Under the pieces are notes generated by a model. The model made no database searches, was not told the DNA's origin, and was given only the letters and a program-made list of their open reading frames with translations. Positions 18,603 through 42,185 of a DNA stretch of 64,000 nt are shown piece after piece. Source of the stretch: Candidatus Aenigmatarchaeota archaeon (GTDB taxonomy: Archaea; Aenigmatarchaeota; Aenigmatarchaeia; Aenigmatarchaeales; JACQIB01). The stretch is from assembly GCA_016198755.1 (NCBI GenBank), contig JACQIB010000004.1:96001-160000 (forward strand), in the 5' to 3' direction. The translations under genes and the position numbers were made by a program. How positions within the stretch are numbered: position 1 is the first letter of the stretch; each line of letters opens with the position of its first letter.

Positions 18603-19067
18603 CTATTCTTTTGCAAGCCCAAGCGCTTCAAAAACCCCCACTTTTACCCAACCTAAGTAAGGAATTTCAAAAATAGCCTTTCCATGTATTTGCGATGCTC
18701 TTATATTGTGTTCAAAATTCCCCTGCACAGAATTTGCATCCCCTTTTGTTTCATATGTTCCATCAGGATTAATTGCTATTACCCTGTGTATTATTGGATA
18801 TCTGTAACCTCCGGTGGAAGCATCAAAAACAACAATATCCCCAATAGAAAGTCCGCTTGGGCTGGACACTATAACCATATCCCCTTTGGAAAACTCAGGA
18901 ACCATGCTGTTTGAGAAAACAGCAACAACTGGAGTATCTGTATGCAGGGCAAACCCAAGTCCCCAGTTAACTCCAATTGCAATTGCAAACCCTAAAACAA
19001 TGTAGAAACCAGTTCCAAAAAGGCTGTTTCTCTCGTTTACTTTAGCCCAAAACTCCCGCAGATTCAT
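18603..19067 (-). CDS. Archaeal signal peptidase I (Sec11/S26B)
   Basis: SNSMVP, GDIVVF, IIHRV, TKGDAN; start moved to MNLREF. Confidence 0.92.
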   Translation of the reverse strand: MNLREFWAKVNERNSLFGTGFYIVLGFAIAIGVNWGLGFALHTDTPVVAVFSNSMVPEFSKGDMVIVSSPSGLSIGDIVVFDASTGGYRYPIIHRVIAINPDGTYETKGDANSVQGNFEHNIRASQIHGKAIFEIPYLGWVKVGVFEALGLAKE

Positions 19068-19151
19068 AATTAAACACTCTTCCGCAGCCTTTTTAAGTAT
19101 ATTGGTTTCTCCTACTCTAACTTTATATATAGGCCTGACAATAAAATATTC

Positions 19152-28481: not shown

Positions 28482-30083
28482 TTAACGCTTATTCTTCCTG
28501 CGTTTTATTACTATTATAAAAAACTCCCTGTAAACTACAACAGATACAAACGCAACAGCAACCCCTATAACAATTATTACAGGAAGTGCTGGAAGTTCCT
28601 CTATTGGCTGCGAAACTATATCCACTCTCTTTTCAATAGTCTCTGTCCCACTCTCATTCTGGATAGTTATCTGCAGTGAGGTTGGGAGTATTCCATTTTC
28701 ACTTGAAGCAATTTCTATTTCCACTTCCCTCTCTTCCCCAGCAGCCAGAGTGAGAGTTATTGGCTTTGTTAAAACAGTTATTCCTTGTTGTGGTTTAAGC
28801 AAAACTGTAATATTTACTGTACTATTCTGGGTGTTCTTTACAAGTATACGAACCTTACCACCTATTATTCCAGTTATCAAAACAGGCGTTTCAATTCTAT
28901 TGATATCCAGCCCTCTATAAACCGCGGGTGTAATAGTAAATATTCCCAATGTTCTCACTTCTGTACCGCCGGCAGAAGCCTTGTAAGCAAATGGATAGTT
29001 CTTTACTCCAGCTTCTTTCGGAGGCTTAAAAAGAACAGAAAAAGCCTGTTCCTGCCCGGGCTTCAGTATCATAGACACGGGCTTTACTTCAAACCAGCTT
29101 TTATTCAATCCTTCTATATCCAGATAAAGCAGAAGTGGAGAGGAAGAGTTGTAAAAGCTTGAGATAGAAACTGTAGTGAAAATAAAGTCCCCAGCCGAAA
29201 CCCTTACCTCATCCTGATATTTTGTTATGTTCAGCTTTGGCTGGGTTGGTTGTAATGTTGTTGTGGTTTCTGTAACAGCAGCTCCGCCTCCTGCCCCTCC
29301 AACACCTTTTGATCCCCCAGACTCAGGTGAAGCCACTACAGTAAATGTATCAAATGCTGTTACATAATAGTCAGCTGAGTGTGCAGTGGCAGAAAGCCTG
29401 TAAGAACCTGGAGTTGGGGGAGCTGTAAACTTTACTATCCTTGTGTATGTCTGCCCGTTGCTAAGTGCAACAACATACTGCCCCAGCTCAGTTGTAAGAG
29501 AATAGTTTACTGTAGTGTCAACAGTGCCCGAGGAAAAGCTGCTTACAGTTATATTGGCTGACACTGAACCGAAAGATACTGGAGACTTGTCTATTACCTC
29601 CACAAAAACATCATATACAGGGGAGTTTGCTGTAAAGTTTGTTATATTGCTATCCCAGAGAACGCTGCGCGTTCCATTGTAAATCTGTGTTGTTATCTGA
29701 TAGAGGCCAGTGGTATTCGGGATGAAGTTTACAGAACAGTTTTTTAGACTATTGGATGCAACTGTTAAAGAGCAGCTTGTATTCTGGAAAACTCCCAGAG
29801 TGTTATTCATTGTAAGGTTTATAAAAAGCAAATCTCCAAGGTTTCCTGTATTCTGCACTGTTGCTGTAACATTAATTGAGCTGTTTGCACGAGGAGAAGG
29901 TGTTATGTTCAGGTCTGTAAACCTGCCCACTGCAAGGCTCTGTATGCTTGCATTTGATGTAACAGGCTCTGTTTGCTGGGTAACATATGCTACAGTCGAT
30001 AATAGTGGGAAGAAAACGTATATTAAAAGGAAAAGAACTGCAACAAAAGCAATCTCCCAGTCTCCAGTAGTTTTAGCATGCAT
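28482..30083 (-). CDS. Membrane-anchored multi-Ig (CARDB/NEW3-like) surface protein
   Basis: N-terminal hydrophobic segment, V.NTG and LKPGQE-type Ig motifs, Gly-rich linker, C-terminal TM with basic tail. Confidence 0.75.
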   Translation of the reverse strand: MHAKTTGDWEIAFVAVLFLLIYVFFPLLSTVAYVTQQTEPVTSNASIQSLAVGRFTDLNITPSPRANSSINVTATVQNTGNLGDLLFINLTMNNTLGVFQNTSCSLTVASNSLKNCSVNFIPNTTGLYQITTQIYNGTRSVLWDSNITNFTANSPVYDVFVEVIDKSPVSFGSVSANITVSSFSSGTVDTTVNYSLTTELGQYVVALSNGQTYTRIVKFTAPPTPGSYRLSATAHSADYYVTAFDTFTVVASPESGGSKGVGGAGGGAAVTETTTTLQPTQPKLNITKYQDEVRVSAGDFIFTTVSISSFYNSSSPLLLYLDIEGLNKSWFEVKPVSMILKPGQEQAFSVLFKPPKEAGVKNYPFAYKASAGGTEVRTLGIFTITPAVYRGLDINRIETPVLITGIIGGKVRILVKNTQNSTVNITVLLKPQQGITVLTKPITLTLAAGEEREVEIEIASSENGILPTSLQITIQNESGTETIEKRVDIVSQPIEELPALPVIIVIGVAVAFVSVVVYREFFIIVIKRRKNKR

Positions 30084-30121
30084 AAAAGAATTGCGCTGCG
30101 CCCGCTTAAAAGGCTTATCCC

Positions 30122-30805
30122 CTACTTTTTCTTTCCAAGCTTTTTCTTCAATTCCTGTTCCTGTTTCTTTAATTCAGCTAACTTTTCAGTAGCGGATATT
30201 TTGCCAGCTTTTTCCCTTCCCAGTTTAACAGTCCTGTATCCGGAAACAAGCTTTCTGCGTTCCAAGAAAACACCTATTGCTGTTGCAACAGCTCCTATGG
30301 CTGTTATAAAACCTGAAAACATCCCCCATTCCCCAACGAAAACGCTTAATGGAGCCTGTACAGAAGCGCCTACAGCAGAGCCTGTTGCAGCCAAATTAGT
30401 TCCTGGAGCATATGAAGCCAAGACCTTTCCTTTATACTGGGCAGGCATAAAAGGCGGGAATCTGGCTGTTGGTGCGGAAAAACAGACTTTCACGGCCCTT
30501 CCATCGCGTGGCATTGTTTTTGCAGGTACAGCTACTGCTGCTGGCTCTGTTCTTGTAACCATTCCGGAAATATCCCCCTCCACTTTTATAGAGGCAACAA
30601 CATCTGTATCAAACGGATTGTAAATATAGTATTGTGTGCAGGTTTCTTTCAGGTCTGGCACTCCAATAGCTTCCTGATCCCATCTCAGCCCAACACCAAT
30701 ATACTGCGCAGAAGCTAAAGTAGGCAGCAGTGATATGGGTATGGCAAAAGCAAGTAAAAGTAATAATGCCCGTTTATTTCCCATATTTTGAACTTTGTTT
30801 TCCAT
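30122..30805 (-). CDS. Secreted single-Ig protein with C-terminal membrane anchor
   Basis: GAGG SD overlapping the upstream stop; signal peptide (ASA|Q), Ig-like domain, TM, Lys-rich tail. Confidence 0.7.
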   Translation of the reverse strand: MENKVQNMGNKRALLLLLAFAIPISLLPTLASAQYIGVGLRWDQEAIGVPDLKETCTQYYIYNPFDTDVVASIKVEGDISGMVTRTEPAAVAVPAKTMPRDGRAVKVCFSAPTARFPPFMPAQYKGKVLASYAPGTNLAATGSAVGASVQAPLSVFVGEWGMFSGFITAIGAVATAIGVFLERRKLVSGYRTVKLGREKAGKISATEKLAELKKQEQELKKKLGKKK

Positions 30806-30815
30806 ATTTATAACC

Positions 30816-31454
30816 TCAACAGGCTGTTTCATTTTCAGTTCCAAGGAAGTTTACTGTATTGTTGTAAATACCAGCGCGCTGGCCTGAAGGTATTGTTAAC
30901 CAAAATCTAAAACTGATAACAGTACCTGCCACGCTGTCATTTCCAATACCATCTATATATTTTTTAGCAGTGTCTATTGCAATGCCTGTGCCCAAGAACG
31001 GGTCGCGCGGGGCAGTAACGCTTGGTGCATTTACTGTATAGTTTGAGGCATTAAAGAGGAAGTTTATGTTTGGTATTGTTGCTGTATCTCCTCCGGATAT
31101 ATTGGTCAGGTTCGCATTATCATAAATACAGATATCCACTCCCACGTTTGTAGTGGAGGAAATAGATATATTGTACATAGATAGATTTCCGCCCGCATAG
31201 TTTGTTTGATTGTAGTTTCCAGAAGCATTATTGTTGCTTGTTCCAGGGTTTACAGCGCCAAATGCAATTCCGGCAGATAAATTTGTTGTAATTCCCAGTG
31301 CAACGAACTTGTTTATGCTTACATTAGCTGTTGTGCTCTGTGTATCTGTGGTAGCAAAGCCTGTTAGCTTGCCTCCGAATGAAAACAAAGAGAGGGAAAT
31401 TGCCATTAGCAAAAACACTGTTACCGTCAATATTTTAGCCCTGTTGTCTCCCAT
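30816..31454 (-). CDS. Secreted WxL/pilin-like beta-sandwich protein (candidate major filament subunit)
   Basis: N-terminal TM plus LTGFA; ends FWLTIPSGQRAGIYNNTVNF; homologous to the C-terminus of the 2708-aa protein. Confidence 0.6.
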   Translation of the reverse strand: MGDNRAKILTVTVFLLMAISLSLFSFGGKLTGFATTDTQSTTANVSINKFVALGITTNLSAGIAFGAVNPGTSNNNASGNYNQTNYAGGNLSMYNISISSTTNVGVDICIYDNANLTNISGGDTATIPNINFLFNASNYTVNAPSVTAPRDPFLGTGIAIDTAKKYIDGIGNDSVAGTVISFRFWLTIPSGQRAGIYNNTVNFLGTENETAC

Positions 31455-31527
31455 ACTATCACATTATTTTTTAACTATTTAAGCCTTGATTTTGTCTTAT
31501 TTTTACTATATGTTTTTATATTCCCTC

Positions 31528-34500
31528 CTAACTGCTTTTGTTAGCAGTGAATATTATTGAGTTGTTATACAGACCTGGAGTCTGCCCCGTTGGGATTGCA
31601 AGGCGGAACTTAAAGTATACAGTTGTTGTGCCAGCTGCAATCTGGCTTTTAACAAGCTGGTCTGTCAAACTCATTGTCTGGAACGGGGAAATTGTTTCCA
31701 GCGTGTTGTCTGTGCTGGAGTTTAAAAAAGTCATATTGCTAATTCCTATAATGGATGTACCTCCTGTCTTGTTTGTTAAATGATCGTTTGCCCTCAGCCA
31801 GATATCTGCACTGCAGCCTGCATTTGTTAACTGGACAGAAAAAGTTGTAACTCCTGTTCCATTATTGCCTGTTGCGTTTATAGTAGTCCCAGGATTTATT
31901 ACATCGTATCCTATTGGAGCGCTCAGATTTGTTGAGAGTCCGAGGGAAATTGAGCAGGCAGCACCTGAAACATTTGCATAAACAGTTCTTGCACCTGCAG
32001 AATAGTTCTCATCTCCTGTAAAATAGCCCGTTACATTATAGTTGCCAGCTGTAGAAAATGGTCCTGTAAGGTTTATTAGAGGAGGGGCTCCTGAAGTTGC
32101 ATTTATCCAGCCAGTAAAGTTCGAGTCTATTTTAACTGTCTGCACTGAAAAGTTCAAAGCCTGTGTTGTTGAATTAAGCAAAACAGTTATGTTCAGTGTA
32201 TCTGTATCATTATAGTCCCTGTTCCCGTCTGTTCCGTTCAAAAGAACTGTTAGGTTTGTTGCTCCCTTGTTTACAAGGTAATTCAAGCTTGAGCTCCCAA
32301 CAGTAAAGTTTGTTGTGGCAGTTGAGTTGCAGATATACTGCCATGTGCTAACATTCAGCCTGAATGTTGTGCTGTTTTCAGGAGTTGTAACATCAAATGA
32401 AAGGCTTGAAATGTTTCTATAAAGTTTTACTGTAACACCTGCATCAGTGTTTGAACTGGAGCAGTTAGACTGGCTTGTTGTAGGATAAGTTATGGGACTA
32501 GAGGGGGATATTGTAAGTGTTATTGTAGGAGTTAAAGTGTTTACTGTAAGAGTGTATGATGCTCCAGTATCATTTGCTGAATAGTTTGCATTTGAGCTCA
32601 TATTAACTTTATAGGAATATGTCCCTGCCCCCAGCTTTATTGTTTCAGTGCTGCTCTTGGAAACTCCATCTCTGAATAAATTGGCTGTGCCTGCAGTTGA
32701 GAAGTTTTTACTTGCCGTGGCTATAATGTTTGCCCCATAGAACATAGCTTTGTTTGAGTTGAAACTAACAGTTCCATTATCCAAAGTCAGGTCCACAAAA
32801 TTGCTTGTATTTACAGCCACAGAATATGGTATAACTCTGGTTGTGTTTACCTTAGATGTTGTGTCTGTACCAATCCAGCGATACTGGTAAGAGCCCCCAG
32901 CCAGATCAGAGAAGTTTATAACATACAGGCCATTTATCTGATCACCAGTGCTGCGTGCAACAGTATAGTTTGTTAGGCTGGAATTCAGGTTCGCTTCAAA
33001 TAAAACAGTGTCTATACCCCCGTCATCGCTCCAGTTTGCCTGGAATCCATAATTCTTGCCCGGAGCATAGACTGTTGCAGATGGGACAGAAGTAAAGTTG
33101 TTTGTGTAGTTTGGATTATTGTTCGGGGCAACTGCTGTATATGTATAGGTAAACCATGCTGTAGGTGCAATATCAAACATCTGCTGAGTTATGACCATTA
33201 TACTAAAGTTGTATTGTGTTGTTGCATTTGCAAGACCATAAAAATCAATTCCTGATCCAGCAGGAGCTGAATTTCCAGATAAGTTGGAAGCATTAAACAA
33301 ATGCTGTTCAGGGCTGAGCAAATCAGAGTCCTGCACAACAATCTGCCCCTGCTGGACTTGAGAATGGTTAATCCATGGCCTTATCTGTCCCACTCCAGCT
33401 GTTGAGCCTTTTACAGGAATATCTATCCAGCTGTTCCTTACTGCTGGGTTGTCTGGAGTGTAAATATATAGAGCTTGTGTAGAGGCGTTCTGGGCAGCGT
33501 TTGTGGTATTACTGAAATTTGTAAAATATCCTATGGTTTTCAGTTGCGTGGAAGAATCATTTGGATATGTATAAATCAAGTCGGCAGTAAACCAAGTGTT
33601 TGACTGAGCTTGCGTGCGTGCCCAGAGAGTTACATTATGTCTATTATCACCGGTTGTTGTAGAGTAAAACTCTCCAGATCCATCTGAACCGTTCACAATA
33701 ATCCACTTCGGAGAGATAAAATCTGTATCAGCAACGCCTATATTATTTCCGTACTGGAGATTTGAACCATTCACAGTTATATTCATTATCCCACCAGCTG
33801 TTCCATTCCCCTGCGTATAAATTGTAAGATAAGCGCTCCTCACTGCAACACTACTTTCAGGAATATACATGTCAAACAGGGAAGACCAGTTTGTGTTTGC
33901 AGCTATAGAGAAAGTCCTGTTACCAAAGAAGCGTACATGTTTCAGTTGTGTTGTGGAACTGGAATCATAACTGTAAGTTACTGTAGCTTTAATCCAAGCA
34001 TCGTCCAGTCTGTTTGTATAAGTTCTAAAAGTAACATTATAATAGTTGTTACCTGTGCCCGCATTATAAAACCCATTTACATAATTTTGTGTGTTGTTTG
34101 AGGCATTAAATGCCCAGTGTATTGGAGCACGGGTAGAGGTTTGCACAGATCTGTTCAGCGAATAATAAAGAGCAGTTTGGTTTATGTAGACATCAGCCTT
34201 CCCTTGTGCTGTCCCACCAACATTTGTTTCTCCATAAACTTCTACAAAGGCGTTCCTTACTGTTATCTGGTTTTCTGGAATGTAAAGATTGAAATCCATT
34301 GTAGTGAAGTTAGAGTTTGCAGTTATGTTTGCAGTGCGGTTTACAAAATAAGTTATTGTTTTCAAATGTGTTTCTGATATTATATCATATTCATAAGTTA
34401 TGTAGGCTTTTGCCCAAGTGTTGAAAAATTGCTTTGCATCAGATTTTATTTCCAGTCCGAATTTGTTATCTCCTTGAGTTATACCATAAAGACCGCTATA

Positions 34501-37500
34501 AGGGGTTGTTGTGTTAGAGGCATTGAACCTGTAGATTGAAGGGAAAACCTGATCTGCATCCATTATACCTACTTTGCTTGCATAATCCAACGGAGTTCCG
34601 TTTAATAGCACTCGTAGGTTGGCGCCTCCTCCCGCATCCCCTTCTGTATAAACTTCTATCCACGCACTTTTAACAGAAACTCCTCTCTCTGGTATATATA
34701 CAGAAAAGTTGCTTGTGAACACACCACTGGCATCAGTCATGTTGCTGCTGTTAATAAACCATTCTATTGTTTTTATTGAGTGATTGCCTACGAGAGGATT
34801 TATTATATATGGTATTACTCCAGTATCATTTATCTGCTGCATTGTGTCGTTTGCAATCCATCTATATTGATAAGTTCCGTTTGTCAAGCCAGTAAAGTTT
34901 ATTGTATATATTGCCTGTGTTAAATTCCCGCCTGCAAGCTTTGTGAGTGTAAAGTTCTTCAGGCTTGAATTCAGGTTTGTCTCAAATGTTACATTAACAA
35001 TTTCAGCAACCTCAGTTGAGATATTGGTTGAAAAGCCATAGTTTCCAGTGCTGTGTATTGTATCTAAATCTGGAATGCTGGTTGCATTGTTTATGAAAAC
35101 TGGAGTTCTGTTTCCTACAGAATATGGTATAACACCTGTAGTATTCACATAATTATCCGTATCATTGGCAATCCATCTGTACTGGTAAGAACCTGTAGAT
35201 ATATTTGTAAAGTTTATAAGATACAGGCCATTGAAGCTGTCGCCTGCAGTCCTGCCAACAGTAAAGTTTTTCAGGCTGCTGTTGAAATTAGACTCGAAAA
35301 ATACAATCTGCACCCCAAAGTTGTCTGTCCAGTTTGTCTGGAAGCCCCAGTTTTTGTTCAGCTGATATACTGTACCGCTTGGCTGAGATGTAACATTGTT
35401 CTGGAATTGTGGAGGAGGGGCTGGAGAGTATGTATATGTAAACCAACCAACAGGAGCTATATTGAACATTTGCTGAGTTATGACCATTATACTAAAGTTG
35501 TATTGTGTTGTAGCGTTTCCGAGTGCATAAAAGTCATTTCCTGTTGTTGCAGAAGCATTGAAAAGCCCCTGAAACGGGCTTAGTACAGTGTCTGTATCAG
35601 GTATAACAGTCTGTCCCTGATTTATCTGGGAGTGGTTAATCCAAATCCTTACCTGACCTGCCCCTGCTGTGCTCCCATGAACATAAGTATCTACCCAGCT
35701 GTTTCTTACTGTTGGATTATCTGGAGTGTAAATGTATAGAGCTTGTGTAGAGGCGTTCTGGGCAGCGTTTGTTGTGTTGCTCTGGTTTATGAAGTAACCT
35801 ATTGTTTTCAGCTGGCTGGTAGAGTCATTTGCATAGGTATAAACAAGTCCTGCCCTGAACCAGCTATCTTTCTGCGCCTGCGTCCTCACCCACACGCTTA
35901 CATTATGTCTGTTGCTACCTGTTGTTGTACTGTAAAGCTCTCCAAATCCATCTGAAGCGTTCACAGAAACCCATATCGGGGCAATAATATCTGTATCAGT
36001 AACAGCAATATTGCTTGAATACTGCAGGTTAGACTGGTTTATGCTTATGTTCATTGTACCTCCAGCAGTGCCGTTTCCATGAGTATAAAAGTCAAGATAG
36101 GCATTCCTGATCGTAACAGAGGTTTCCGGAATAAAAATATCAAAGAGAGAGGACCAGTTTGTGTTTGCAGCAATAGCAAAAGTGCTCCTGTTACCAAAGA
36201 ACTTTACACTATTTAACTGTGTGGTTGAATTTGCAGCATAAGAATATGTTGCAGTAACCTTTATCCAAACATTGTCCATGCGGTTTGTATAGGATCTGAC
36301 TGTTATGTTATATAGGTTATTACCTGTGCCTGCAGTATAAAGTCCGTTTGCATAGCTTAAAGTTGAATTAGAGGCGTTAAACATAAGGAATGTTGGGGCG
36401 CGCGGCGTTGTCTGCAGGCTCCTATTCAATCCATAATCCACTCCTGTACCGTTTATGTACACATCAGTCTTTCCTTTTGTTGTTCCTGAAACAGCTGGCT
36501 CTGTATAAACCTCTATAAAAGAATTTCTGACCTTTACCTGATCCTCGGGGATATAGAGATTAAAATTATAGTTTGTGAAATTAGAGTTTGCGCTAACATT
36601 GGCAGTCCTGTTTACAAAATAAGTTACTGTTTTCAGTTGCGTTTCAGAGTTTGTATCATACTCATAAGTTACATAAGCTTTTATCCAGCCGTTGAAGGAG
36701 TTCTTTGCAAACCCATCCACTTCAATCCCAAAATTATTTTCCCCCTGAGCTATACTGTAGAGGCCGTTAAAGTTTGCGCTTGCATTCGAGGCATTGAATC
36801 TCCATATATTTGGAAAAAACAAATCAGCATCACCAATCACAGCTTTGCTTGCATACTGCAGAGGAGTTCCGTTAAGAAAAATCACAAAATAGTCTCCTGC
36901 AGACTCTGAACCCTCTCTATAAACCTCTATCCACGCACTTTTAACAGAAACTCCTCTCTCTGGTATATAGATGCTGAAATTCGAAATAGCATCACCTGTA
37001 ATGGTTGTCATGTTTGAGCTATTTACAAACCACTCTATTGTCTTTATTGAGGCAGCTCCAGGTATGGGATTCATTGAATAAGGTATAACTCCTGTTGTGT
37101 TTACACCGCTTGCACTGTCGTTTACTATCCATCTGTATTGGTAGGTTCCGTTTGTCAGGCCAGTAAGACTAGTGAAGTTTATTGTATAGGTTGCAAAGGT
37201 TGTGTTTCCGCCTGCAACAGCAGATATAGTAAAGTTTTTCAGGGTTGCATTCAGGTTTGTTTCGAAAGTTACGTTGATAATTTCTGTTCCAAATGTAGTT
37301 ATGTTTGTTGAAAATCCATAGTTTGCTGTAGCATTTATTGGGAAGTTAGAAGGCATGGAGCTTGCGTTGTTAACAAAAATTAGTTGAGAGTTTGCTATAG
37401 AAAATGGTATAATGCCGGTTGTGTTTATATTGTTTGCAGAATCATTTGCTATCCAGCGATATTGGTAGTTTCCGGCAGAGAGCGTTGAACCAGTGAAGTT

Positions 37501-39654
37501 TATGAAATAAAATTTCTGAGTTGCATTTCCACCAGCAACAGCAGGTATAGTAAAGTTTTTCAGGGTCGCATTCAGGTTTGTTTCGAAAGTTACATTGTTT
37601 ATGGAAACGGATTCTGTGGATACGTTTGTTGAGAATGTGTAGTTTGTAAGTGTGTTTATGCCCACTCCGCTTGCTTGTGAACTCGTGTTGCTTACAAAGC
37701 GGGGCTTTGGAACATCAGAATAAGCTCCTGTGGCTACAAGCTTTACTGATTTGAGCGGACATGCAACATTAGACTGGCATTTTATGTTTACTGAAAATGT
37801 TTTTGGAGTGTCTGTTGACAGGTTGTATACTCCATTGGTGTTTGTTGTTGCATTGTGCCTTATCATGTAGTTGAAAATCTCAACGCCTGCAACAAAAGTA
37901 TAGTTTGTGTAGCTTGTGTTTTCATCGTATGGTGTACTGTTCATTGAAACAGTTATTGCTGTTGTAAGAGCTGACACATCCAAAAGTCCCTCTACCTGCA
38001 GGAAAGCTGATTTCACAACAAAATCATCGTCTATAGGCTTTATTGTAAATGTAGAGTTCCACCAGCTCCCAGCAGAAACAGTTGCTGTGGAAGAGTTCAC
38101 ATAATATTCTTCAGTATCCATATAGTTAGCGGCATCTGAAGTATATGTTATAATAACAGAGGCTGACATTGCTTCGCATGTATCGCCTGCTCCGCATTTC
38201 ACACCGAAAGCAAATCCATATGTGCTATTGTCTGTTATTCCATACAGTCCCTGCACGCTTCCTGTTACGCTGGATGCGTTTGCAAGTACAACAAATCCAT
38301 AGCTTGGGGTTGTACCTGCTATAACTGGGGATAAAATGTTCGTTCCATTAAGCCTGAGGTCAAGTGTGTTGTCAGTGGTTGCAGCGCTCCCAGGATAAAC
38401 ACCTGTAAGTTTTATGTACGATGATTTTACAGCAATGTTTGTGCCTGAAAGGGCAACAGTAAAGGTCGAATTCCACCATGTGCTTGTTCCAACACTTACA
38501 TTTGTGGAGTTGATAAAAACCTCAACTGTTTTTGTTTTCGCAGGTGCTGTATACTGATATGTTACTTTCATTACAGTTCCAAGTGCTCCTGTAGGCGCTC
38601 CGGCTTTGAGTCCATAGAGAAAGGTAGATGGGGTAGAGTTGAGCATATATGTCAGGTTGTTGCTTGCATTCCTTACAATCCTTATTGTGGAAGCTTCCCC
38701 ATTTCCAGCACTTACAGGCGCAGGCCCAAGATTTGTAGAATTCTGTGATACGTTAAGTACCCTATCTACTGTTCCAGTTTCGTCATTTGATCCCCAGGTT
38801 TCAAACCATGCATTTTTCACAACAGCAGCATTATCAGAGAGTGCAGCTGAAAATGTGGAATTCCACCATACACCGGCTCCTGTCTGCGGTCCGCTTGCAT
38901 TCACGAAAAAATCAACTGTACGTACTTCTGTTGCTGCAAATGCTGGTATAGATGTTAATGGGATAAACAACATTATAAAAATAATTGCCAGAAATGTTGG
39001 CTTCTTTTTTCGCAATACAATTCCAAGTGGAATAAAAGCAAGAAGAGGGAGTAAACTGAAAAGCCAGTTTAGGATTGATTTTGGTTCAGTATGAGTTTGG
39101 GATAGCGGGAACTGGGGCGCAGCATTTTCAGATACAACTTTTGTATTATCTTCCTCAGGACCGGTTCCTGGAGGATCGTATGTATAGGTTATTATAGCGC
39201 GTGCAGAGACCGAATTGCAAAGGTCGCCGTTGCACTGCACCCCGAATTTCAGCCTTCTTGAACTGCTGTTTGTTATATTGTAAAGGTTATCGTAGTTACC
39301 CGATGAATTATCCAGAATAGTAAAATATTCAGTTTCTCCGGAATTTGTGAAAGAGTATGTATCAGCAGCTCCTCCGTTCTGCGCTATTTTTATATTGCTT
39401 GCCGCTGTCCCAGCCTTCCCAAAAGAGCCCGAAACTTCTATAAAGGCTGAAATAACCTGAGGAGTTGGATCAGGGAGCTGCACATCATATGTGCTGTTAA
39501 ACCAGTTTCCATTTGGCATTTGCGAATCAGACTGGTTTATGAAAAATACAACTGTTTTTGTGTTGAAAAGATAGCCTGCTTCTGCTACTGGAACAGAGAG
39601 TAAGAAAATCAGGGCAAATAAGAGCGGCAGAGCCAGCAAAGAGAGAGCTTTCAT
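31528..39654 (-). CDS. Giant repetitive surface glycoprotein/adhesin (2708 aa)
   Basis: Signal peptide, 12 copies of a roughly 135-aa domain, 5 copies of a YQYRW domain, very many NxS/T sequons, C-terminal WxL/pilin-like domain. Confidence 0.85.
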   Translation of the reverse strand: MKALSLLALPLLFALIFLLSVPVAEAGYLFNTKTVVFFINQSDSQMPNGNWFNSTYDVQLPDPTPQVISAFIEVSGSFGKAGTAASNIKIAQNGGAADTYSFTNSGETEYFTILDNSSGNYDNLYNITNSSSRRLKFGVQCNGDLCNSVSARAIITYTYDPPGTGPEEDNTKVVSENAAPQFPLSQTHTEPKSILNWLFSLLPLLAFIPLGIVLRKKKPTFLAIIFIMLFIPLTSIPAFAATEVRTVDFFVNASGPQTGAGVWWNSTFSAALSDNAAVVKNAWFETWGSNDETGTVDRVLNVSQNSTNLGPAPVSAGNGEASTIRIVRNASNNLTYMLNSTPSTFLYGLKAGAPTGALGTVMKVTYQYTAPAKTKTVEVFINSTNVSVGTSTWWNSTFTVALSGTNIAVKSSYIKLTGVYPGSAATTDNTLDLRLNGTNILSPVIAGTTPSYGFVVLANASSVTGSVQGLYGITDNSTYGFAFGVKCGAGDTCEAMSASVIITYTSDAANYMDTEEYYVNSSTATVSAGSWWNSTFTIKPIDDDFVVKSAFLQVEGLLDVSALTTAITVSMNSTPYDENTSYTNYTFVAGVEIFNYMIRHNATTNTNGVYNLSTDTPKTFSVNIKCQSNVACPLKSVKLVATGAYSDVPKPRFVSNTSSQASGVGINTLTNYTFSTNVSTESVSINNVTFETNLNATLKNFTIPAVAGGNATQKFYFINFTGSTLSAGNYQYRWIANDSANNINTTGIIPFSIANSQLIFVNNASSMPSNFPINATANYGFSTNITTFGTEIINVTFETNLNATLKNFTISAVAGGNTTFATYTINFTSLTGLTNGTYQYRWIVNDSASGVNTTGVIPYSMNPIPGAASIKTIEWFVNSSNMTTITGDAISNFSIYIPERGVSVKSAWIEVYREGSESAGDYFVIFLNGTPLQYASKAVIGDADLFFPNIWRFNASNASANFNGLYSIAQGENNFGIEVDGFAKNSFNGWIKAYVTYEYDTNSETQLKTVTYFVNRTANVSANSNFTNYNFNLYIPEDQVKVRNSFIEVYTEPAVSGTTKGKTDVYINGTGVDYGLNRSLQTTPRAPTFLMFNASNSTLSYANGLYTAGTGNNLYNITVRSYTNRMDNVWIKVTATYSYAANSTTQLNSVKFFGNRSTFAIAANTNWSSLFDIFIPETSVTIRNAYLDFYTHGNGTAGGTMNISINQSNLQYSSNIAVTDTDIIAPIWVSVNASDGFGELYSTTTGSNRHNVSVWVRTQAQKDSWFRAGLVYTYANDSTSQLKTIGYFINQSNTTNAAQNASTQALYIYTPDNPTVRNSWVDTYVHGSTAGAGQVRIWINHSQINQGQTVIPDTDTVLSPFQGLFNASATTGNDFYALGNATTQYNFSIMVITQQMFNIAPVGWFTYTYSPAPPPQFQNNVTSQPSGTVYQLNKNWGFQTNWTDNFGVQIVFFESNFNSSLKNFTVGRTAGDSFNGLYLINFTNISTGSYQYRWIANDTDNYVNTTGVIPYSVGNRTPVFINNATSIPDLDTIHSTGNYGFSTNISTEVAEIVNVTFETNLNSSLKNFTLTKLAGGNLTQAIYTINFTGLTNGTYQYRWIANDTMQQINDTGVIPYIINPLVGNHSIKTIEWFINSSNMTDASGVFTSNFSVYIPERGVSVKSAWIEVYTEGDAGGGANLRVLLNGTPLDYASKVGIMDADQVFPSIYRFNASNTTTPYSGLYGITQGDNKFGLEIKSDAKQFFNTWAKAYITYEYDIISETHLKTITYFVNRTANITANSNFTTMDFNLYIPENQITVRNAFVEVYGETNVGGTAQGKADVYINQTALYYSLNRSVQTSTRAPIHWAFNASNNTQNYVNGFYNAGTGNNYYNVTFRTYTNRLDDAWIKATVTYSYDSSSTTQLKHVRFFGNRTFSIAANTNWSSLFDMYIPESSVAVRSAYLTIYTQGNGTAGGIMNITVNGSNLQYGNNIGVADTDFISPKWIIVNGSDGSGEFYSTTTGDNRHNVTLWARTQAQSNTWFTADLIYTYPNDSSTQLKTIGYFTNFSNTTNAAQNASTQALYIYTPDNPAVRNSWIDIPVKGSTAGVGQIRPWINHSQVQQGQIVVQDSDLLSPEQHLFNASNLSGNSAPAGSGIDFYGLANATTQYNFSIMVITQQMFDIAPTAWFTYTYTAVAPNNNPNYTNNFTSVPSATVYAPGKNYGFQANWSDDGGIDTVLFEANLNSSLTNYTVARSTGDQINGLYVINFSDLAGGSYQYRWIGTDTTSKVNTTRVIPYSVAVNTSNFVDLTLDNGTVSFNSNKAMFYGANIIATASKNFSTAGTANLFRDGVSKSSTETIKLGAGTYSYKVNMSSNANYSANDTGASYTLTVNTLTPTITLTISPSSPITYPTTSQSNCSSSNTDAGVTVKLYRNISSLSFDVTTPENSTTFRLNVSTWQYICNSTATTNFTVGSSSLNYLVNKGATNLTVLLNGTDGNRDYNDTDTLNITVLLNSTTQALNFSVQTVKIDSNFTGWINATSGAPPLINLTGPFSTAGNYNVTGYFTGDENYSAGARTVYANVSGAACSISLGLSTNLSAPIGYDVINPGTTINATGNNGTGVTTFSVQLTNAGCSADIWLRANDHLTNKTGGTSIIGISNMTFLNSSTDNTLETISPFQTMSLTDQLVKSQIAAGTTTVYFKFRLAIPTGQTPGLYNNSIIFTANKSS
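32800..37400 (-). repeat. Internal tandem duplication of about 2.28 kb within the giant gene (boundaries approximate)
   Basis: Identical nucleotide blocks at about 34656/36927 and 33184/35473 (offsets 2271 and 2289 bp); the protein blocks beginning IKTIEWF repeat. Confidence 0.85.
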
Positions 39655-39710
39655 GGGTTTAATTTAGTGCGTAAGCATATATTTAATGGTTATTTGTGCC
39701 TTTTGGAGGT

Positions 39711-40889
39711 TTAGCTCTGGAAAATCACATTATCTATCAGGAAGCTTGAACCCGGGAACTGGTTGCAGCTGTCTGTGGCTGTATAAAACCGCATTAACTT
39801 ACCCTTGTCTATAATAGTATTGGAATTTGCTGTTATATTATACCATCCACCTCCGACATCAATTGTGGATGTTTTATACTCCCCCGGAGTTGAAATAATA
39901 TTCCCAGCCGAATCTATCTCAAACGGAAGGCTTGTATCAGAATCCCCATTTGCAAATAAAACCTCCACACCGAAAGCCCAGTTGCAGGTTGCCCCATTTG
40001 TAAAGTTAGGTAGGTAATTAAAGCTTACATTGAATAATCCTGTTCCTGTGGCTTCCAGCTTATCAGAAAAAACCCTTTGGGGTGCCCCAAGGTATTTTAT
40101 ACGCAGTGCTGTTGCAGACTGGTAACCAGATTCCAGAGGATTATATTCCCAGTTTATCTCATCTGCAGCACCGTTTATATCCTGCATGAGCGTCCAGTTC
40201 TCGGGCAGGCTTGAATTGCCTGCACGCACGGTTTCCAAATCATAGTTAGATATTCTTGACGCATCTTTCTGTGCACTAACATCACCCCCATCAGCTGAGA
40301 GGCTTGGTATAGTCCAGCGTACTCCGTCTTTTTTTCCAACATTGTTCTTATCTAACAGAGCTTTCCTAATATTCTTCTTATTGCTGTCCAATACAACAGA
40401 ATAATGATATTCCGGTGGTAGCCCAGGAAGATCTGTATTGATTGGTATGTTTTTATAATGATAATCAGATTTTACAGTTACATGTTTTTTATAGTTGGTT
40501 TGCTCGCTGTTCAATATACTTTCAGTAACGTATATTGGCGATGTTTGGAAGCGAAAAACCCATGAAGAATCCCCTGGCGGGGCATCAAAAGAAACAGTTT
40601 CCTTCCCATGTATTTTTGCATTAGCAGGTGCTGATATTACTTCAGCTCCCTTTCCAAAGTTTAATTTAGTTGTTTTTGCAAATAGTCCTGGATTTTTTGC
40701 AATAACTGTCCTATCCCATACTATTGGTTTTTCATAGACAAACCCAGAAACCAGCGAATATGTGCTTGTTGTAGAAACCTCACCTGTTTTTGCTGGCGCA
40801 AGACCGGTGTTAACAGAAACATTATAAAGCCCAAGGGCTAGAAAAAGTACTGTTATGACTGCAAAAGCCAAAAGAGGTATCTTTCCCAT
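39711..40889 (-). CDS. Surface protein with C-terminal CBM4/9-like domain (paralog A)
   Basis: N-terminal TM; ISNYDLE...PENW...IDNV jelly-roll pattern. Confidence 0.65.
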   Translation of the reverse strand: MGKIPLLAFAVITVLFLALGLYNVSVNTGLAPAKTGEVSTTSTYSLVSGFVYEKPIVWDRTVIAKNPGLFAKTTKLNFGKGAEVISAPANAKIHGKETVSFDAPPGDSSWVFRFQTSPIYVTESILNSEQTNYKKHVTVKSDYHYKNIPINTDLPGLPPEYHYSVVLDSNKKNIRKALLDKNNVGKKDGVRWTIPSLSADGGDVSAQKDASRISNYDLETVRAGNSSLPENWTLMQDINGAADEINWEYNPLESGYQSATALRIKYLGAPQRVFSDKLEATGTGLFNVSFNYLPNFTNGATCNWAFGVEVLFANGDSDTSLPFEIDSAGNIISTPGEYKTSTIDVGGGWYNITANSNTIIDKGKLMRFYTATDSCNQFPGSSFLIDNVIFQS

Positions 40890-40935
40890 AATTAAAATAT
40901 ATGATGGTTGTTAATATAGCTTTCTGTTTTAAAAT

Positions 40936-42120
40936 TTAGGCTTCAAACACAACGTTATCCATTAAGACGCTTGATCCAGGGAACTGATTGCAGCTCTCAG
41001 TGTCTATATAAAATTGCATAGACTTATCAGGATCTATCAGTACATTTGACTTTGCATCCACATGGTACCAGCCATCAGTCAGCGGGGTTACAACTGTATT
41101 ATACTCCCCTGGGGTTGAAACAATATTCCCGGCTGAATCTATCTCAAACGGAAGGCTTGTATCAGATTCTCCTGTTGCAAAGAAAACTTCCACACCGAAA
41201 GCCCAGTTGCAGATTGCTCCGCTCTCAAACTGGGGATTAAAATCAAAGCTTATATTGAAAGTTCCGGTGCCCAGTGTAGATAGATTATCAGAATATATCC
41301 TGTATGTGCCCAAGTGCTTTACTCTTAGTGAGCTGGAAGACTGCCAGCCAGCTTCCAAGGGATCATATCCCCAGTCAATTGCATCAGTTCTGGCAGTCGG
41401 ATCCTGTGTCAAAGTCCATCCATCAGGTTTCTTATCATTGTTAGCTCTGCCTGTCTCAAACTTGTAATTCGAAATCCTTGAAGGCACTTTCTGTGCTGCA
41501 ACACCAAAGCTTTCAGTTGATAAATGGGCAACTGTCCAGCGAGTAGAATCTTTGTTCCCATCCCCATCATTATCATACAAAACCTTCCTTGTCTCCTGCC
41601 CTGTGCTCTGCGGAGTAATAGAATAAACATGGGTTGCAGGGAGATTTGGTAAAGAAGTTAAAGCAGGTATATTTGTATAATGGTAATTTGAGGAAACAGT
41701 AACAATTTTATTGTAGTTTGCTGGATCAGAGTTTAGAACCTGTTCAGTAACAGTTATGGGAGCTGTTTCAAACCTTATAATCCATACAGAATCTCCCGAA
41801 GGAGCCTTTATTACAAACTTTTTCTTTCCTTCCATTTTTACCCCATCAGGAACACTAACAACCTCAGCTCCCTTGCCAAGCTTTATTTTAACCTTCTTAT
41901 TCTTTTCTGTTGGATTGTGTACATATACTGTCCTGTCCCATGTAATTGGCTGGTTCAAAACAAAACCTGAAACAAGGCTGTCTGTTTGCGTGAAAGTAAC
42001 CTTATTATCCTCAACCTCTGCTGCTTCTATATCATCATCAGCCAGAACAGCTGTAGAATAAGAAGCAAAAAATAGTGCAAATACAGAAACTAAAAGAAGT
42101 ACACCAATAGCATGCTTCAT
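40936..42120 (-). CDS. Secreted protein with C-terminal CBM4/9-like domain (paralog B)
   Basis: Full-length similarity to 39711-40889, including a 32-bp identical stretch (39910-39941 vs 41135-41166). Confidence 0.65.
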   Translation of the reverse strand: MKHAIGVLLLVSVFALFFASYSTAVLADDDIEAAEVEDNKVTFTQTDSLVSGFVLNQPITWDRTVYVHNPTEKNKKVKIKLGKGAEVVSVPDGVKMEGKKKFVIKAPSGDSVWIIRFETAPITVTEQVLNSDPANYNKIVTVSSNYHYTNIPALTSLPNLPATHVYSITPQSTGQETRKVLYDNDGDGNKDSTRWTVAHLSTESFGVAAQKVPSRISNYKFETGRANNDKKPDGWTLTQDPTARTDAIDWGYDPLEAGWQSSSSLRVKHLGTYRIYSDNLSTLGTGTFNISFDFNPQFESGAICNWAFGVEVFFATGESDTSLPFEIDSAGNIVSTPGEYNTVVTPLTDGWYHVDAKSNVLIDPDKSMQFYIDTESCNQFPGSSVLMDNVVFEA

Positions 42121-42185
42121 AGGATACTATTCTATAGAAATATAATAAATACACACACCCCATGACAAATAATAAAAATTTTTGA

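What the first reader, a model, noticed from the sequence alone, without database searches (positions are those of the whole stretch)
28482..39654. Candidate undescribed archaeal surface filament: giant tip adhesin, small subunit with a shared domain, and two anchored Ig proteins
Seen: the last roughly 150 aa of the 2708-aa protein align by eye with the whole mature 212-aa neighbour (ANVS..ISLGLSTNLSAPIGYDVINPGT vs ANVS..VALGITTNLSAGIAFGAVNPGT; HLTNKTGG vs NLTNISGG; FRLAIPTGQTPGLYNNSIIF vs FWLTIPSGQRAGIYNNTVNF). Neither has a C-terminal anchor. The small gene has its own TATA-like box (31476-31483). Two co-oriented genes encoding Ig-like proteins with C-terminal TMs follow. There is no class III signal, ATPase or usher. 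Known: this layout parallels Gram-positive csc/WxL clusters (large WxL, small WxL, anchored partner) and donor-strand pili (adhesin plus pilin). Inference: the 212-aa protein polymerises through its N-terminal strand (TQSTTANVSI), is capped by the giant adhesin, and is assembled or anchored by the downstream proteins, perhaps for host attachment.
Basis: partly seen in the sequence, partly recalled or inferred. Interest (0 to 1): 0.85.

Follow-up and report, generated by a model that had tools for sequence, protein, structure and literature searches.

The report
Donor-strand pilus cluster in DPANN archaeon
A tiny symbiotic-type archaeon carries a conserved four-gene cluster that most likely builds a thin surface fibre from small interlocking subunits tipped by a giant sticky protein, a design so far described only in bacteria and a few other archaea.

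Summary
The last ~140 aa of the 2708-aa protein are homologous to the 212-aa neighbour (BLASTP E 1e-13; independent profile E 4.6e-24). The small protein belongs to an unannotated family: 503 representatives, no Pfam or PDB sequence match. It occurs in 118 of 371 genomes of the same phylum, which is Nanobdellota/Woesearchaeota by Atlas taxa.

An AF2 model (pLDDT 86.8) weakly resembles chaperone-usher pilins (best Foldseek E 3e-3). A three-copy model puts residues 35-50 of one copy into a groove of the next, antiparallel to its last strand (score 0.65, best control 0.00). The inserted residues are conserved in 103 of 103 relatives.

The gene order giant, pilin(s), TM-anchored protein, TM-anchored multi-Ig protein recurs in 18-19 of 20 loci from nine families.

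The closest known systems are the WxL/Elr pilus of Bacillota and the Pam pilus of CPR bacteria (both 2026 preprints) and archaeal threads. Sequence membership in the WxL and chaperone-usher families fails; Pam could not be tested. Capping, anchoring and host attachment were not tested. I rate it a new variant of a known kind.

The parts
31528..39654 (-). Giant secreted glycoprotein P0001 (2708 aa), the candidate distal adhesin. It has an N-terminal signal peptide, about 12 copies of a ~135-aa module, 5 copies of a ~100-aa module, a stretch that looks Ig-like by eye, and a C-terminal pilin-like domain.
   Evidence: ORF and translation. Repeat map, including a ~760-aa super-repeat (645-1409 ~ 1409-2172, 60-70% identical). 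165 N-x-S/T sequons. No Pfam hit above cut-off.
31537..31956 (-). C-terminal pilin-like (acceptor) domain of the giant, residues 2567-2706. It is homologous to the small subunit but is not aligned over the donor-strand columns.
   Evidence: BLASTP E 1e-13. A2 profile E 4.6e-24, profile columns 47-188.
38929..39075 (-). Internal hydrophobic pair in the giant (residues 194-242): a TM-like segment, RKKK, then a second signal-peptide-like segment ending AFA|ATE.
   Evidence: Hydropathy scan and the sequence itself. Processing is inferred, not shown.
30816..31454 (-). Small subunit P0002 (212 aa), the candidate pilin. It has a Sec-type signal peptide (residues 1-34, likely cleaved after G-F-A), an N-terminal donor strand and an Ig-like body. 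13 sequons.
31311..31337 (-). Predicted donor strand, residues 40-48 (STTANVSIN). T41, A43, V45 and I47 point into the neighbour's groove.
   Evidence: Lowest-error contact pairs in the three-copy model. Column conservation: position 43 S/T/A in 103/103, position 45 V/A/L/I in 103/103, position 47 I/V/L in 103/103.
31476..31482 (-). TATA-like heptamer TTAAATA, 21 nt upstream of the small gene's ATG.
   Evidence: Function not tested.
39680..39686 (-). Identical TTAAATA heptamer, 25 nt upstream of the giant gene's ATG.
   Evidence: Function not tested.
30122..30784 (-). P0003 (220 aa from the ATG at 30784): signal peptide, a ~130-aa domain with two invariant Cys, a C-terminal TM helix and a Lys-rich tail. 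Candidate membrane anchor/terminator or chaperone.
   Evidence: Relatives lie in 19 of 20 syntenic loci. No Pfam hit.
28482..30083 (-). P0004 (533 aa): N-terminal hydrophobic segment, several Ig-like domains (Cep192_D3/CARDB/MSP-like) and a C-terminal TM helix. Candidate membrane-anchored assembly factor.
   Evidence: Relatives lie in 18 of 20 syntenic loci.

Best explanation
The cluster most likely encodes an usher-free surface fibre joined by donor-strand complementation, in a DPANN (Nanobdellota/Woesearchaeota-type) archaeon.

Proposed mechanism:
1. The 212-aa protein is exported by Sec and its signal peptide is removed after the conserved (I/L)-T-G-x-A site.
2. Its Ig-like body lacks a final strand. 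[quoted passage not shown] This gives a head-to-tail, heavily N-glycosylated chain.
3. The 2708-aa protein carries the same domain at its extreme C-terminus, apparently without a donor strand of its own. It can therefore accept a strand but not donate one, and it sits at the distal end as an interchangeable adhesin.
4. The two downstream proteins, each held in the membrane by a C-terminal helix, act at the base. One probably holds or primes subunits as a chaperone. One probably ends the chain and ties it to the membrane.

Shown by computation: the domain homology, the size and spread of the family, the synteny, and the predicted strand insertion with controls. Inferred: signal-peptide cleavage, the giant's tip position, the roles of the two anchored proteins, the length of the polymer, and host attachment.
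For: (1) Homology of the giant's C-terminal domain to the small protein: E 1e-13 and E 4.6e-24 with a profile that excludes the giant.

(2) The small protein belongs to a large unannotated family. There are 503 representatives at E<=1e-3 and 321 at E<=1e-10. Most are 185-210 aa. A minority are very large proteins with the domain at the extreme C-terminus.

(3) The AF2 model with 103 sequences has pLDDT 86.8 and pTM 0.73. In Foldseek against the PDB, 35 of the 44 rows listed are chaperone-usher pilus subunits (CupE, CfaB, CsuA/B, FimA, PapA, Caf1, SafA); best E 3e-3, probability up to 0.99, TM by target 0.37-0.52.

(4) Three copies of residues 35-212 gave a score (ipSAE) of 0.65 (runs 0.71, 0.64, 0.65), best of 3 controls 0.00.
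- In the tool's calibration, 20 of 30 proteins solved as pairs reached the mark and 1 of 23 solved as single chains did.
- The runs agree in at least 97% of contacts and the partner's pLDDT is at least 78.
- The interface is residues 35-50 of one copy against 49-70 and 184-207 of the next.
- T41, A43, V45 and I47 are the best-defined contacts, and the donor runs antiparallel to 194-203.

(5) The donor positions are conserved: 43 S/T/A, 45 V/A/L/I and 47 I/V/L, each in 103 of 103 sequences; position 50 is Y/F in 74 of 103.

(6) Large proteins align to the profile only from columns 26-60 onward, and about half of them from 43-49, which is after the donor columns.

(7) Synteny in 20 loci from 9 coded families: a P0003-like gene in 19 of 20 and a P0004-like gene in 18 of 20, in the same order, with 1-3 tandem small subunits.

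(8) The N-terminal parts of the large proteins differ completely between loci, as expected for swappable adhesin payloads.

(9) The same logic is experimentally established for the WxL/Elr pilus. There the donor consensus is [S/T]-x-[G/A]-x-[V/I]-x-F, antiparallel to strand F; the chaperone is membrane-anchored; the tip adhesin has a C-terminal acceptor domain. It is proposed for Pam pili of CPR bacteria.
Against: - No Foldseek match reaches E<=1e-3, and TM-scores are modest.
- The complex score is the model's own confidence. The calibration used two copies and other alignments. A pass may partly reflect learned pilin geometry.
- I could not inspect coordinates, so I cannot say whether the monomer model self-complements. 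Residues 41-50 have pLDDT 92 in the monomer.
- The giant keeps an 'ANVS' stretch at the place of the donor strand. My attempt to show that this stretch is the last strand of the preceding Ig-like domain was not significant: 67, 35 and 221 of 500 shuffles reached the observed scores.
- In 10 more divergent loci the giant's domain occurs with no detectable small subunit (0 of 10), and only 5 of 10 have a P0004-like gene. The domain can therefore work without a polymerising partner, or those partners are too diverged to detect.
- P0003 and P0004 show no sequence likeness to PapD or to DUF916/DUF3324. The mature N-terminus of P0003 may simply be the first strand of its own domain.
- The 20 syntenic loci were chosen because a large and a small hit lay side by side, so the adjacency of giant and small subunit is biased by selection. 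The presence of P0003- and P0004-like genes was not a selection criterion.
- There is no expression or microscopy evidence.
Confidence: 0.6

Rival explanations
1. A short donor-strand tether rather than a pilus. The giant adhesin is joined through one or a few small adaptor subunits to a membrane-anchored protein (P0003 and/or P0004). The system would then be a way to display and anchor giant adhesins on a cell without a wall, not a long homopolymeric fibre.
For: - Ten divergent loci have the giant's domain plus TM-anchored Ig-type proteins but no detectable small subunit.
- Many loci carry 2-3 distinct small paralogues, which resembles adaptor subunits more than one major pilin.
- P0003 has a TM helix and a Lys-rich tail like the Elr base subunit ElrB.
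- Nothing here measures polymer length.
Against: The small subunit is predicted to bind itself head to tail. That is what a polymerising major subunit does. A subunit that has both a donor strand and an acceptor groove has no obvious stop signal.
Confidence: 0.2
2. A non-filament surface-display module. The shared domain would be a self-complete beta-sandwich that binds the S-layer, surface glycans or the ectodomains of P0003/P0004. This was the older view of WxL domains as wall-binding modules. The small protein would be a free paralogue that competes, regulates or coats.
For: - No Foldseek hit passes E<=1e-3.
- The nearest Pfam-bearing Atlas cluster is WxL, historically a wall-binding domain (feature score 0.83, a lead only; structure TM 0.52).
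- The giant's domain occurs without small subunits in some genomes.
Against: - The predicted inter-subunit strand insertion has clean controls.
- The alternating small and hydrophobic residues in the N-terminal tail, outside the globular body, are invariant in character.
- WxL domains themselves have now been shown to form donor-strand pili.
Confidence: 0.12
3. Unrelated secreted glycoproteins that merely share a mobile Ig-like domain. There would be no joint assembly, and the neighbourhood would reflect co-regulation of surface proteins.
For: DPANN genomes are rich in large repetitive surface proteins. Ig-like domains are shuffled widely. All functional links here are computational.
Against: The four-gene order is kept across nine coded families. 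In every large relative seen, the domain sits at the extreme C-terminus. Both facts are hard to explain without a shared function.
Confidence: 0.05

Closest known systems
WxL/Elr pilus of Enterococcus faecalis and other Bacillota (bioRxiv 10.64898/2026.10.17.759780; abstract and sections 7, 8, 9, 12, 14 read, plus passages of sections 13 and 15 by term search)
   Same: - Same gene logic: a large protein with variable N-terminal payload and the shared domain at the extreme C-terminus, small proteins that consist of the domain alone, and a protein anchored by a C-terminal TM helix.
- The N-terminal donor strand lies within about the first 15 mature residues. It has an alternating small/aliphatic pattern (here T-x-A/S-x-V/A-x-I/V; there [S/T]-x-[G/A]-x-[V/I]-x-F). 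[quoted passage not shown]
- There is no usher.
- The tip domain lacks a donor strand.
- The base protein ElrB has a TM helix and a Lys-rich tail, as P0003 does.
   Different: - No sequence membership: Pfam WxL matched 0 of 371 genomes of this phylum, and no WxL hit was listed among 103 family members.
- No DUF916/DUF3324.
- No LPXTG, sortase or peptidoglycan is expected. This is read from the sequences and from general knowledge of archaea.
- No W-x-L motifs at the C-terminus.
- The proteins are heavily N-glycosylated.
- That paper screened 4,698 genera in 81 phyla and found the system only in Bacillota.
- A profile-profile test against WxL could not be run.
Pam pili of Candidate Phyla Radiation bacteria (PMC13278184, 2026 preprint; abstract and passages read)
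   Same: - An ultra-small episymbiont lineage.
- Ig-fold pilins joined by donor-strand exchange.
- Putative chaperones that keep a C-terminal TM helix.
- A single-domain tip acceptor.
- A terminator that tethers the fibre to the membrane.
- No trans-envelope machine.
   Different: - Pam pilins have two domains, with a linker strand as the donor. [quoted passage not shown]
- Pam is reported as exclusive to CPR bacteria.
- The tip there is a small pilin, not a giant adhesin.
- No Pam sequences were available here, so relatedness was not tested.
Archaeal thread filament of Sulfolobus acidocaldarius (Saci_0406; PMC9715654; passages read)
   Same: An archaeal, Sec/SPase I-processed, heavily N-glycosylated ~200-aa subunit with a type-1-pilin-like fold and an N-terminal donor strand. 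It is independent of class III signal peptidase and no usher is known.
   Different: - No sequence relation: the profile search of all PDB chains found nothing relevant, and no thread chain is among the 44 Foldseek rows listed.
- No N-terminal Asp/YYY motif for the proposed isopeptide.
- The thread's partner Saci_0405 is a small donor-only cap, not a giant acceptor-only adhesin.
- The neighbourhood differs.
- Threads are reported from Crenarchaea.
Chaperone-usher pili of Gram-negative bacteria (FimA/PapA/CsuA/B/Caf1)
   Same: These are the best structural neighbours of the model. They share the two-part tip-adhesin logic (payload plus acceptor pilin domain) and a donor strand antiparallel to the last strand.
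   Different: No PapD_N chaperone or usher in the genome. No Fimbrial or SCPU Pfam match. The organism is presumed to have a single membrane, which is an inference for a DPANN archaeon.
TasA / archaeal bundling pili (ABP) and Tat-dependent haloarchaeal pili
   Same: Strand-donation filaments of monoderm cells. A signal peptidase I of the archaeal/SipW type is encoded in the window at 18603-19157.
   Different: No Peptidase_M73/TasA Pfam match was listed. The peptidase gene lies 12 kb away and is the ordinary archaeal type (TIGR02228 1.5e-24, against SipW 6.1e-8, far below its cut-off). There is no twin-arginine motif in P0002 (read from the sequence). These papers were seen only as search listings or are recalled.

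Membership tests
WxL/Elr donor-strand pilus (Bacillota) | Subunits carry the Pfam WxL domain (PF13731) | tested here: not met
   0 of 371 genomes of the phylum matched at E<=0.01, while the control rang in Lactococcus lactis. No WxL hit for P0001 or P0002 at E<=1. WxL is not among the 25 of 31 families listed for the 103 members. Atlas leads only: feature score 0.83, structure TM 0.52.
WxL/Elr donor-strand pilus (Bacillota) | DUF916/DUF3324 membrane-anchored chaperone | tested here: not met
   PF06030 and PF11797: no match in the own genome at E<=0.1. Neither was found in the 21 P0003-like proteins or the 19 P0004-like proteins. Both proteins do have the C-terminal TM helix.
WxL/Elr donor-strand pilus (Bacillota) | Layout: large protein with the domain at its C-terminus, small domain-only protein(s), and a TM-anchored partner in one cluster | tested here: met
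   Present in the window and in 18-19 of 20 loci from 9 coded families.
WxL/Elr donor-strand pilus (Bacillota) | N-terminal donor strand inserted antiparallel to the acceptor's C-terminal strand | tested here: met
   Met by prediction only. Score 0.65, best control 0.00. Residues 35-50 go into 49-70 and 184-207. Donor index falls as acceptor index rises over 194-203. The columns are conserved.
WxL/Elr donor-strand pilus (Bacillota) | Sortase/LPXTG anchoring of the base subunit | tested here: not met
   No LPXTG in P0003 or P0004 (read). The TM helix plus Lys-rich tail is present.
Chaperone-usher pili | Periplasmic PapD-like chaperone (PF00345) | tested here: not met
   No match in the own genome, which is 89% complete.
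Chaperone-usher pili | Outer-membrane usher (PF00577) | tested here: not met
   No match in the own genome.
Chaperone-usher pili | Pilin with an incomplete Ig fold resembling Fim/Pap/Csu subunits | tested here: inconclusive
   35 of the 44 listed Foldseek rows are CU subunits, but the best E is 3e-3 and TM by target is 0.37-0.52. No Fimbrial or SCPU Pfam hit; DUF4402 matched 2 of 103 at 0.003.
Archaeal threads (Saci_0406, arCOG10215) | Sequence or fold match to Saci_0406; N-terminal Asp and YYY motif | tested here: not met
   The profile search of all PDB chain sequences at E<=10 gave two unrelated hits. No thread chain is in the listed Foldseek rows. The mature N-terminus is TTDTQ..., not D-x-YYY (motif as).
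TasA / archaeal bundling pili | Peptidase_M73/TasA-type domain and a dedicated SipW-type peptidase in the locus | tested here: not met
   No such Pfam hit was listed. The only signal peptidase I in the window is 12 kb away and is the general archaeal type.
Pam pili (CPR bacteria) | Homology to PamA/B pilins and PamC/D chaperones | not testable with these tools
Only the published description was read.
Type IV pili / archaella | Class III signal peptide, assembly ATPase and platform protein in the locus | tested here: not met
   No such genes lie between 25000 and 45000. The P0002 signal has no G/A-cleavage motif before its hydrophobic core (read). The rest of the genome was not searched for them.

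The most novel reading that the evidence does not exclude
DPANN archaea possess their own donor-strand-exchange pilus. It would be built by membrane-tethered Ig-fold factors and tipped by interchangeable giant adhesins; relatives reach 12,864 aa. It would serve as their host-attachment organelle. It would be either an ancient inter-domain relative of the Bacillota WxL pilus or a third independent invention of the same design, alongside WxL pili and the Pam pili of CPR bacteria. In that case, usher-free, chaperone-at-the-membrane strand exchange is the general way single-membrane and ultra-small symbiotic cells build adhesive fibres.
Probability: 0.35. Interest if true: 0.85.

Novelty: new variant of a known kind. 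Interest (0 to 1): 0.78.

Why it matters
DPANN archaea live attached to other cells, yet how they hold on is largely unknown. Their giant surface proteins are mostly unannotated. This cluster gives a concrete, testable mechanism for how such giants are displayed and anchored on a cell without a wall.

It assigns a likely role to a family of about 500 representative protein clusters with no Pfam model, and to two companion families.

It also extends to Archaea a pilus design that two 2026 preprints report as confined to Bacillota (WxL/Elr) and to CPR bacteria (Pam). Whether the archaeal family is homologous to WxL or convergent bears on how often donor-strand assembly evolved.

The variable payloads on a constant C-terminal attachment module also offer a handle for predicting host specificity from metagenomes.

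Tried and rejected
- First AF2 model with a 5-row alignment: pLDDT 42, unusable. It was replaced by a 103-row alignment.
- Word-based homologue search: only 4 relatives. The exhaustive profile search was needed.
- Profile against PDB sequences: two unrelated weak hits, E 0.29 and 1.1.
- Pfam or NCBIfam on P0001-P0003: nothing real.
- TasA/SipW idea, prompted by the conserved T-G-x-A after the signal helix: dropped. There is no TasA-type Pfam hit and the motif fits an ordinary SPase I site.
- P0003 as a domain of P0004: hhalign probability 46% over 8 columns, rejected. The iterated P0004 profile did pick up P0003-like proteins, but I treat that as drift through a fused ORF in L050.
- Test that 'TVYANVS' in the giant is the last strand of the preceding Ig-like repeat: not significant; 67, 35 and 221 of 500 shuffles reached the observed scores.
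- The three paralogous secreted proteins upstream (39711-43733) as part of the system: not found in the other 20 loci, so they are left out.
- RNA evidence: no RNA holder was listed.
- Literature: searches for 'DPANN' + 'donor strand', archaea/chaperone-usher/pilin-like/Nanoarchaeota, Nanobdellota/pili/adhesin/giant and Woesearchaeota/surface protein/filament/Ig-like found no description of this archaeal system. The Elr preprint contains no mention of DPANN. The supplements of the thread, Pam and Elr papers (synteny tables, distribution lists) could bear on the claim that no archaeal counterpart has been reported.
- A profile-profile comparison with WxL, and complex predictions of giant+small, small+P0003 and small+P0004, were not possible.
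Full report
What is there. Between 28482 and 39654, four co-oriented minus-strand genes lie almost end to end.
- P0001: 2708 aa, 31528-39654.
- P0002: 212 aa, 30816-31454.
- P0003: ORF 30122-30844. The likely ATG at 30784 gives 220 aa.
- P0004: 533 aa, 28482-30083.

The flanks are housekeeping genes: DUF1512, ribosomal protein L10e and a rhomboid protease. The host genome is 890,842 bases in 6 contigs and 89% complete. Atlas clusters nearest to P0002 and P0003 are archaeal, most often Woesearchaeota/Nanobdellota. This is therefore a DPANN-type archaeon. That assignment rests on those taxa and on genome size, not on a marker-gene tree.

The observation. The giant's residues 2569-2702 align to residues 51-203 of P0002 with 33% identity (E 1e-13). 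A profile of 103 relatives of the small protein, built without the giant, matches residues 2567-2706 at E 4.6e-24. Neither protein has a C-terminal hydrophobic segment, whereas both downstream proteins do. P0004 carries Ig-like domains of the Cep192/CARDB/MSP type, with one hit above Pfam's cut-off; related proteins also hit NPCBM_assoc/NEW3. P0003 has no Pfam match. A TTAAATA heptamer lies 21 nt before the P0002 start and an identical one lies 25 nt before the P0001 start. The heptamer is not enriched in the window overall (18 seen, 23.6 expected).

The family. A word-based search found only four relatives. An exhaustive profile search found 503 representatives at E<=1e-3 and 321 at E<=1e-10.
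- Most are 185-210 aa.
- One class of about 290 aa has an extra N-terminal region.
- A minority are very large proteins (for example 2163 and 1322 aa) with the domain at the extreme C-terminus.

None of 103 members has a credible Pfam match, and the profile finds nothing in the PDB by sequence. Within the phylum, 118 of 371 genomes have a match at E<=1e-5. That is 33 of 98 among high-quality genomes and 60 of 170 genera. The spread is patchy: only 1 of 6 other genomes of the window's own family has a match. The large carriers include open frames of 12,864, 6,215, 4,004, 3,959 and 3,551 aa.

Assembly. Three copies of residues 35-212, with the 103-row alignment, scored 0.65 (runs 0.71, 0.64, 0.65) against 0.00 for the best of three controls.
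- In the tool's calibration, 20 of 30 proteins solved as pairs reached the mark and 1 of 23 solved as single chains did.
- The runs agree in at least 97% of contacts and the partner's pLDDT is at least 78.
- The tool warns that its calibration used two copies and other alignments.
- The interface is residues 35-50 of one copy against residues 49-70 and 184-207 of the next.
- The best-defined contacts are T41, A43, V45 and I47 against 62-65, 112-132, 184-188 and 192-203.
- As the donor index falls from 47 to 40, the acceptor index rises from about 194 to 203. The strand is therefore antiparallel to the last strand.

This is the geometry of donor-strand complementation. The inserted positions are conserved across the family: position 43 is S/T/A, position 45 is V/A/L/I and position 47 is I/V/L, each in 103 of 103 sequences. 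Position 41 is T in 58 and V or A in 30. Position 50 is aromatic in 74. Just upstream, (I/V)-(T/S/A)-(G/A) follows the hydrophobic helix and fits a signal peptidase I site. This puts the first pocket residue about seven residues into the mature protein.

The giant. Its N-terminal 2,500 residues are repeats:
- about 12 copies of a ~135-aa module;
- 5 copies of a ~100-aa module, with a sub-threshold CBM48-like hit;
- a ~760-aa super-repeat that is 60-70% identical.

It has 165 N-glycosylation sequons. The independent profile aligns the giant only from column 47, after donor columns 39-45. In 19 other large relatives the alignment starts at columns 26-49, and the segment before the domain has no conserved donor motif. 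The large proteins therefore look like acceptors without a donor, as tip adhesins are in chaperone-usher and WxL pili. This step is inferred. The 'ANVS' identity at that spot remains unexplained. My test that it belongs to the preceding repeat was not significant. The N-terminal parts of the large relatives are unrelated to each other, as expected for swappable payloads.

Synteny. I fetched 20 loci from 20 genomes of nine coded families, chosen because a large and a small hit lay side by side. A P0003-like gene is present in 19 of 20 and a P0004-like gene in 18 of 20. The order is always large protein, then 1-3 small subunits, then the P0003-like gene (sometimes between two subunit genes), then the P0004-like gene. 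L052 lacks both companions and L058 lacks the P0004-like gene.

P0003-like proteins share a signal peptide, a mature N-terminus G-V-G-I-x-W, two invariant cysteines, a TM helix and a KKKK tail. They are not related to P0004-like proteins.

In 10 further loci where only a large protein had matched, no small subunit was detectable (0 of 10), and a P0004-like gene was found in 5 of 10. In 5 of the 7 loci I inspected, the next gene encodes a divergent protein with a signal peptide, one domain, an acidic linker and a TM helix. The minimal conserved pair may therefore be giant plus membrane-anchored partner. This keeps the short-tether rival alive.

Comparison with what is known.
- Chaperone-usher pili give the best fold matches, but no PapD or usher is present.
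- Archaeal threads share the principle but not the sequence, the motif or the neighbourhood.
- The closest match in organisation is the WxL/Elr pilus. An October 2026 preprint reports the following. ElrD polymerises by donor-strand exchange, with the donor consensus [S/T]-x-[G/A]-x-[V/I]-x-F antiparallel to strand F. ElrE (DUF916/DUF3324) is a membrane-anchored chaperone. [quoted passage not shown] ElrB is a base subunit with a TM helix and a Lys-rich tail. In 4,698 genera of 81 phyla, the system was found only in Bacillota.
- A June 2026 preprint describes Pam pili of CPR bacteria, with TM-anchored chaperone-like proteins, and calls them exclusive to CPR.

By sequence the archaeal proteins are not members. 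Pfam WxL matches 0 of 371 genomes of the phylum. DUF916 and DUF3324 are absent from the genome. There is no LPXTG. Whether there is remote homology to WxL could not be tested.

Verdict. The system is a new variant of a known kind: an archaeal, DPANN-wide, unannotated donor-strand fibre or tether with giant tip adhesins. I put 0.6 on the donor-strand fibre model, 0.2 on a short tether, and the rest on non-assembling readings.

Noticed in passing
window 38929-39075 (P0001 residues 194-242): The giant ORF contains an internal TM-like segment, then RKKK, then a second signal-peptide-like segment ending AFA|ATE, after a first signal peptide and one repeat module. It looks like two genes fused in frame: a small anchored protein and the giant. 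If signal peptidase cuts at the second site, the two parts would separate again.
   Followed up: partly
P0070 (698 aa), P0032 and P0041 (~290 aa): P0070 is a pilin-like protein fused in frame to a second signal peptide and a P0004-like multi-Ig protein with a TM helix. P0032 and P0041 have a ~100-aa cytoplasmic coiled-coil-like region before the hydrophobic helix and the pilin domain. They may be uncleaved, membrane-tethered base subunits.
   Followed up: no
window 39711-43733, minus strand: Three secreted proteins (392, 394, 515 aa) lie directly upstream of the giant. The first two are 52% identical, and the third shares only the C-terminal ~160 aa. They have no Pfam family and were not found in the 20 related loci.
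   Followed up: partly
window 18603-19157 (-) and 19152-21251 (+): An archaeal-type signal peptidase I (TIGR02228, E 1.5e-24) lies divergent from a 699-aa secreted Thr-rich protein with a CARDB domain. It is the likely processing enzyme for the cluster's signal peptides, but it is 12 kb away.
   Followed up: no
G299:C1:102037-102402 and other places listed: Open frames of 12,864, 6,215, 4,004, 3,959 and 3,551 aa in related genomes end in the same pilin-like domain. These are among the largest archaeal ORFs one is likely to meet.
   Followed up: partly
P0002 residues C109 and C212 (window 31128-31130 and 30819-30821): Two cysteines are nearly invariant in the small subunits, one in a core strand and one as the very last residue. 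The giant's domain lacks both and has two cysteines elsewhere. This may be a subunit-specific disulfide that pins the C-terminal strand.
   Followed up: no
P0001 residues 653-861, 1415-1618, 2188-2279: The ~100-aa modules with the motif Y-Q-Y-R-W-I-x-N-D give a sub-threshold match to the glycogen-binding CBM48 family (AMPK1_CBM, E 3e-4, 21.3 bits against a cut-off of 26.8). This hints at carbohydrate binding by the adhesin.
   Followed up: no
window, 18 sites listed: TTAAATA is not enriched overall. However, several copies lie 10-40 nt upstream of minus-strand gene starts (24034, 25803, 31476, 39680, 43770). This fits an archaeal TATA box with short or no leaders.
   Followed up: partly
Atlas structure rows 2-3: Unnamed archaeal clusters from Methanobacteriota (186 aa) and Microcaldota (154 aa) have models similar to P0002 (TM 0.53-0.56). 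Related pilin-like proteins may exist outside DPANN.
   Followed up: no
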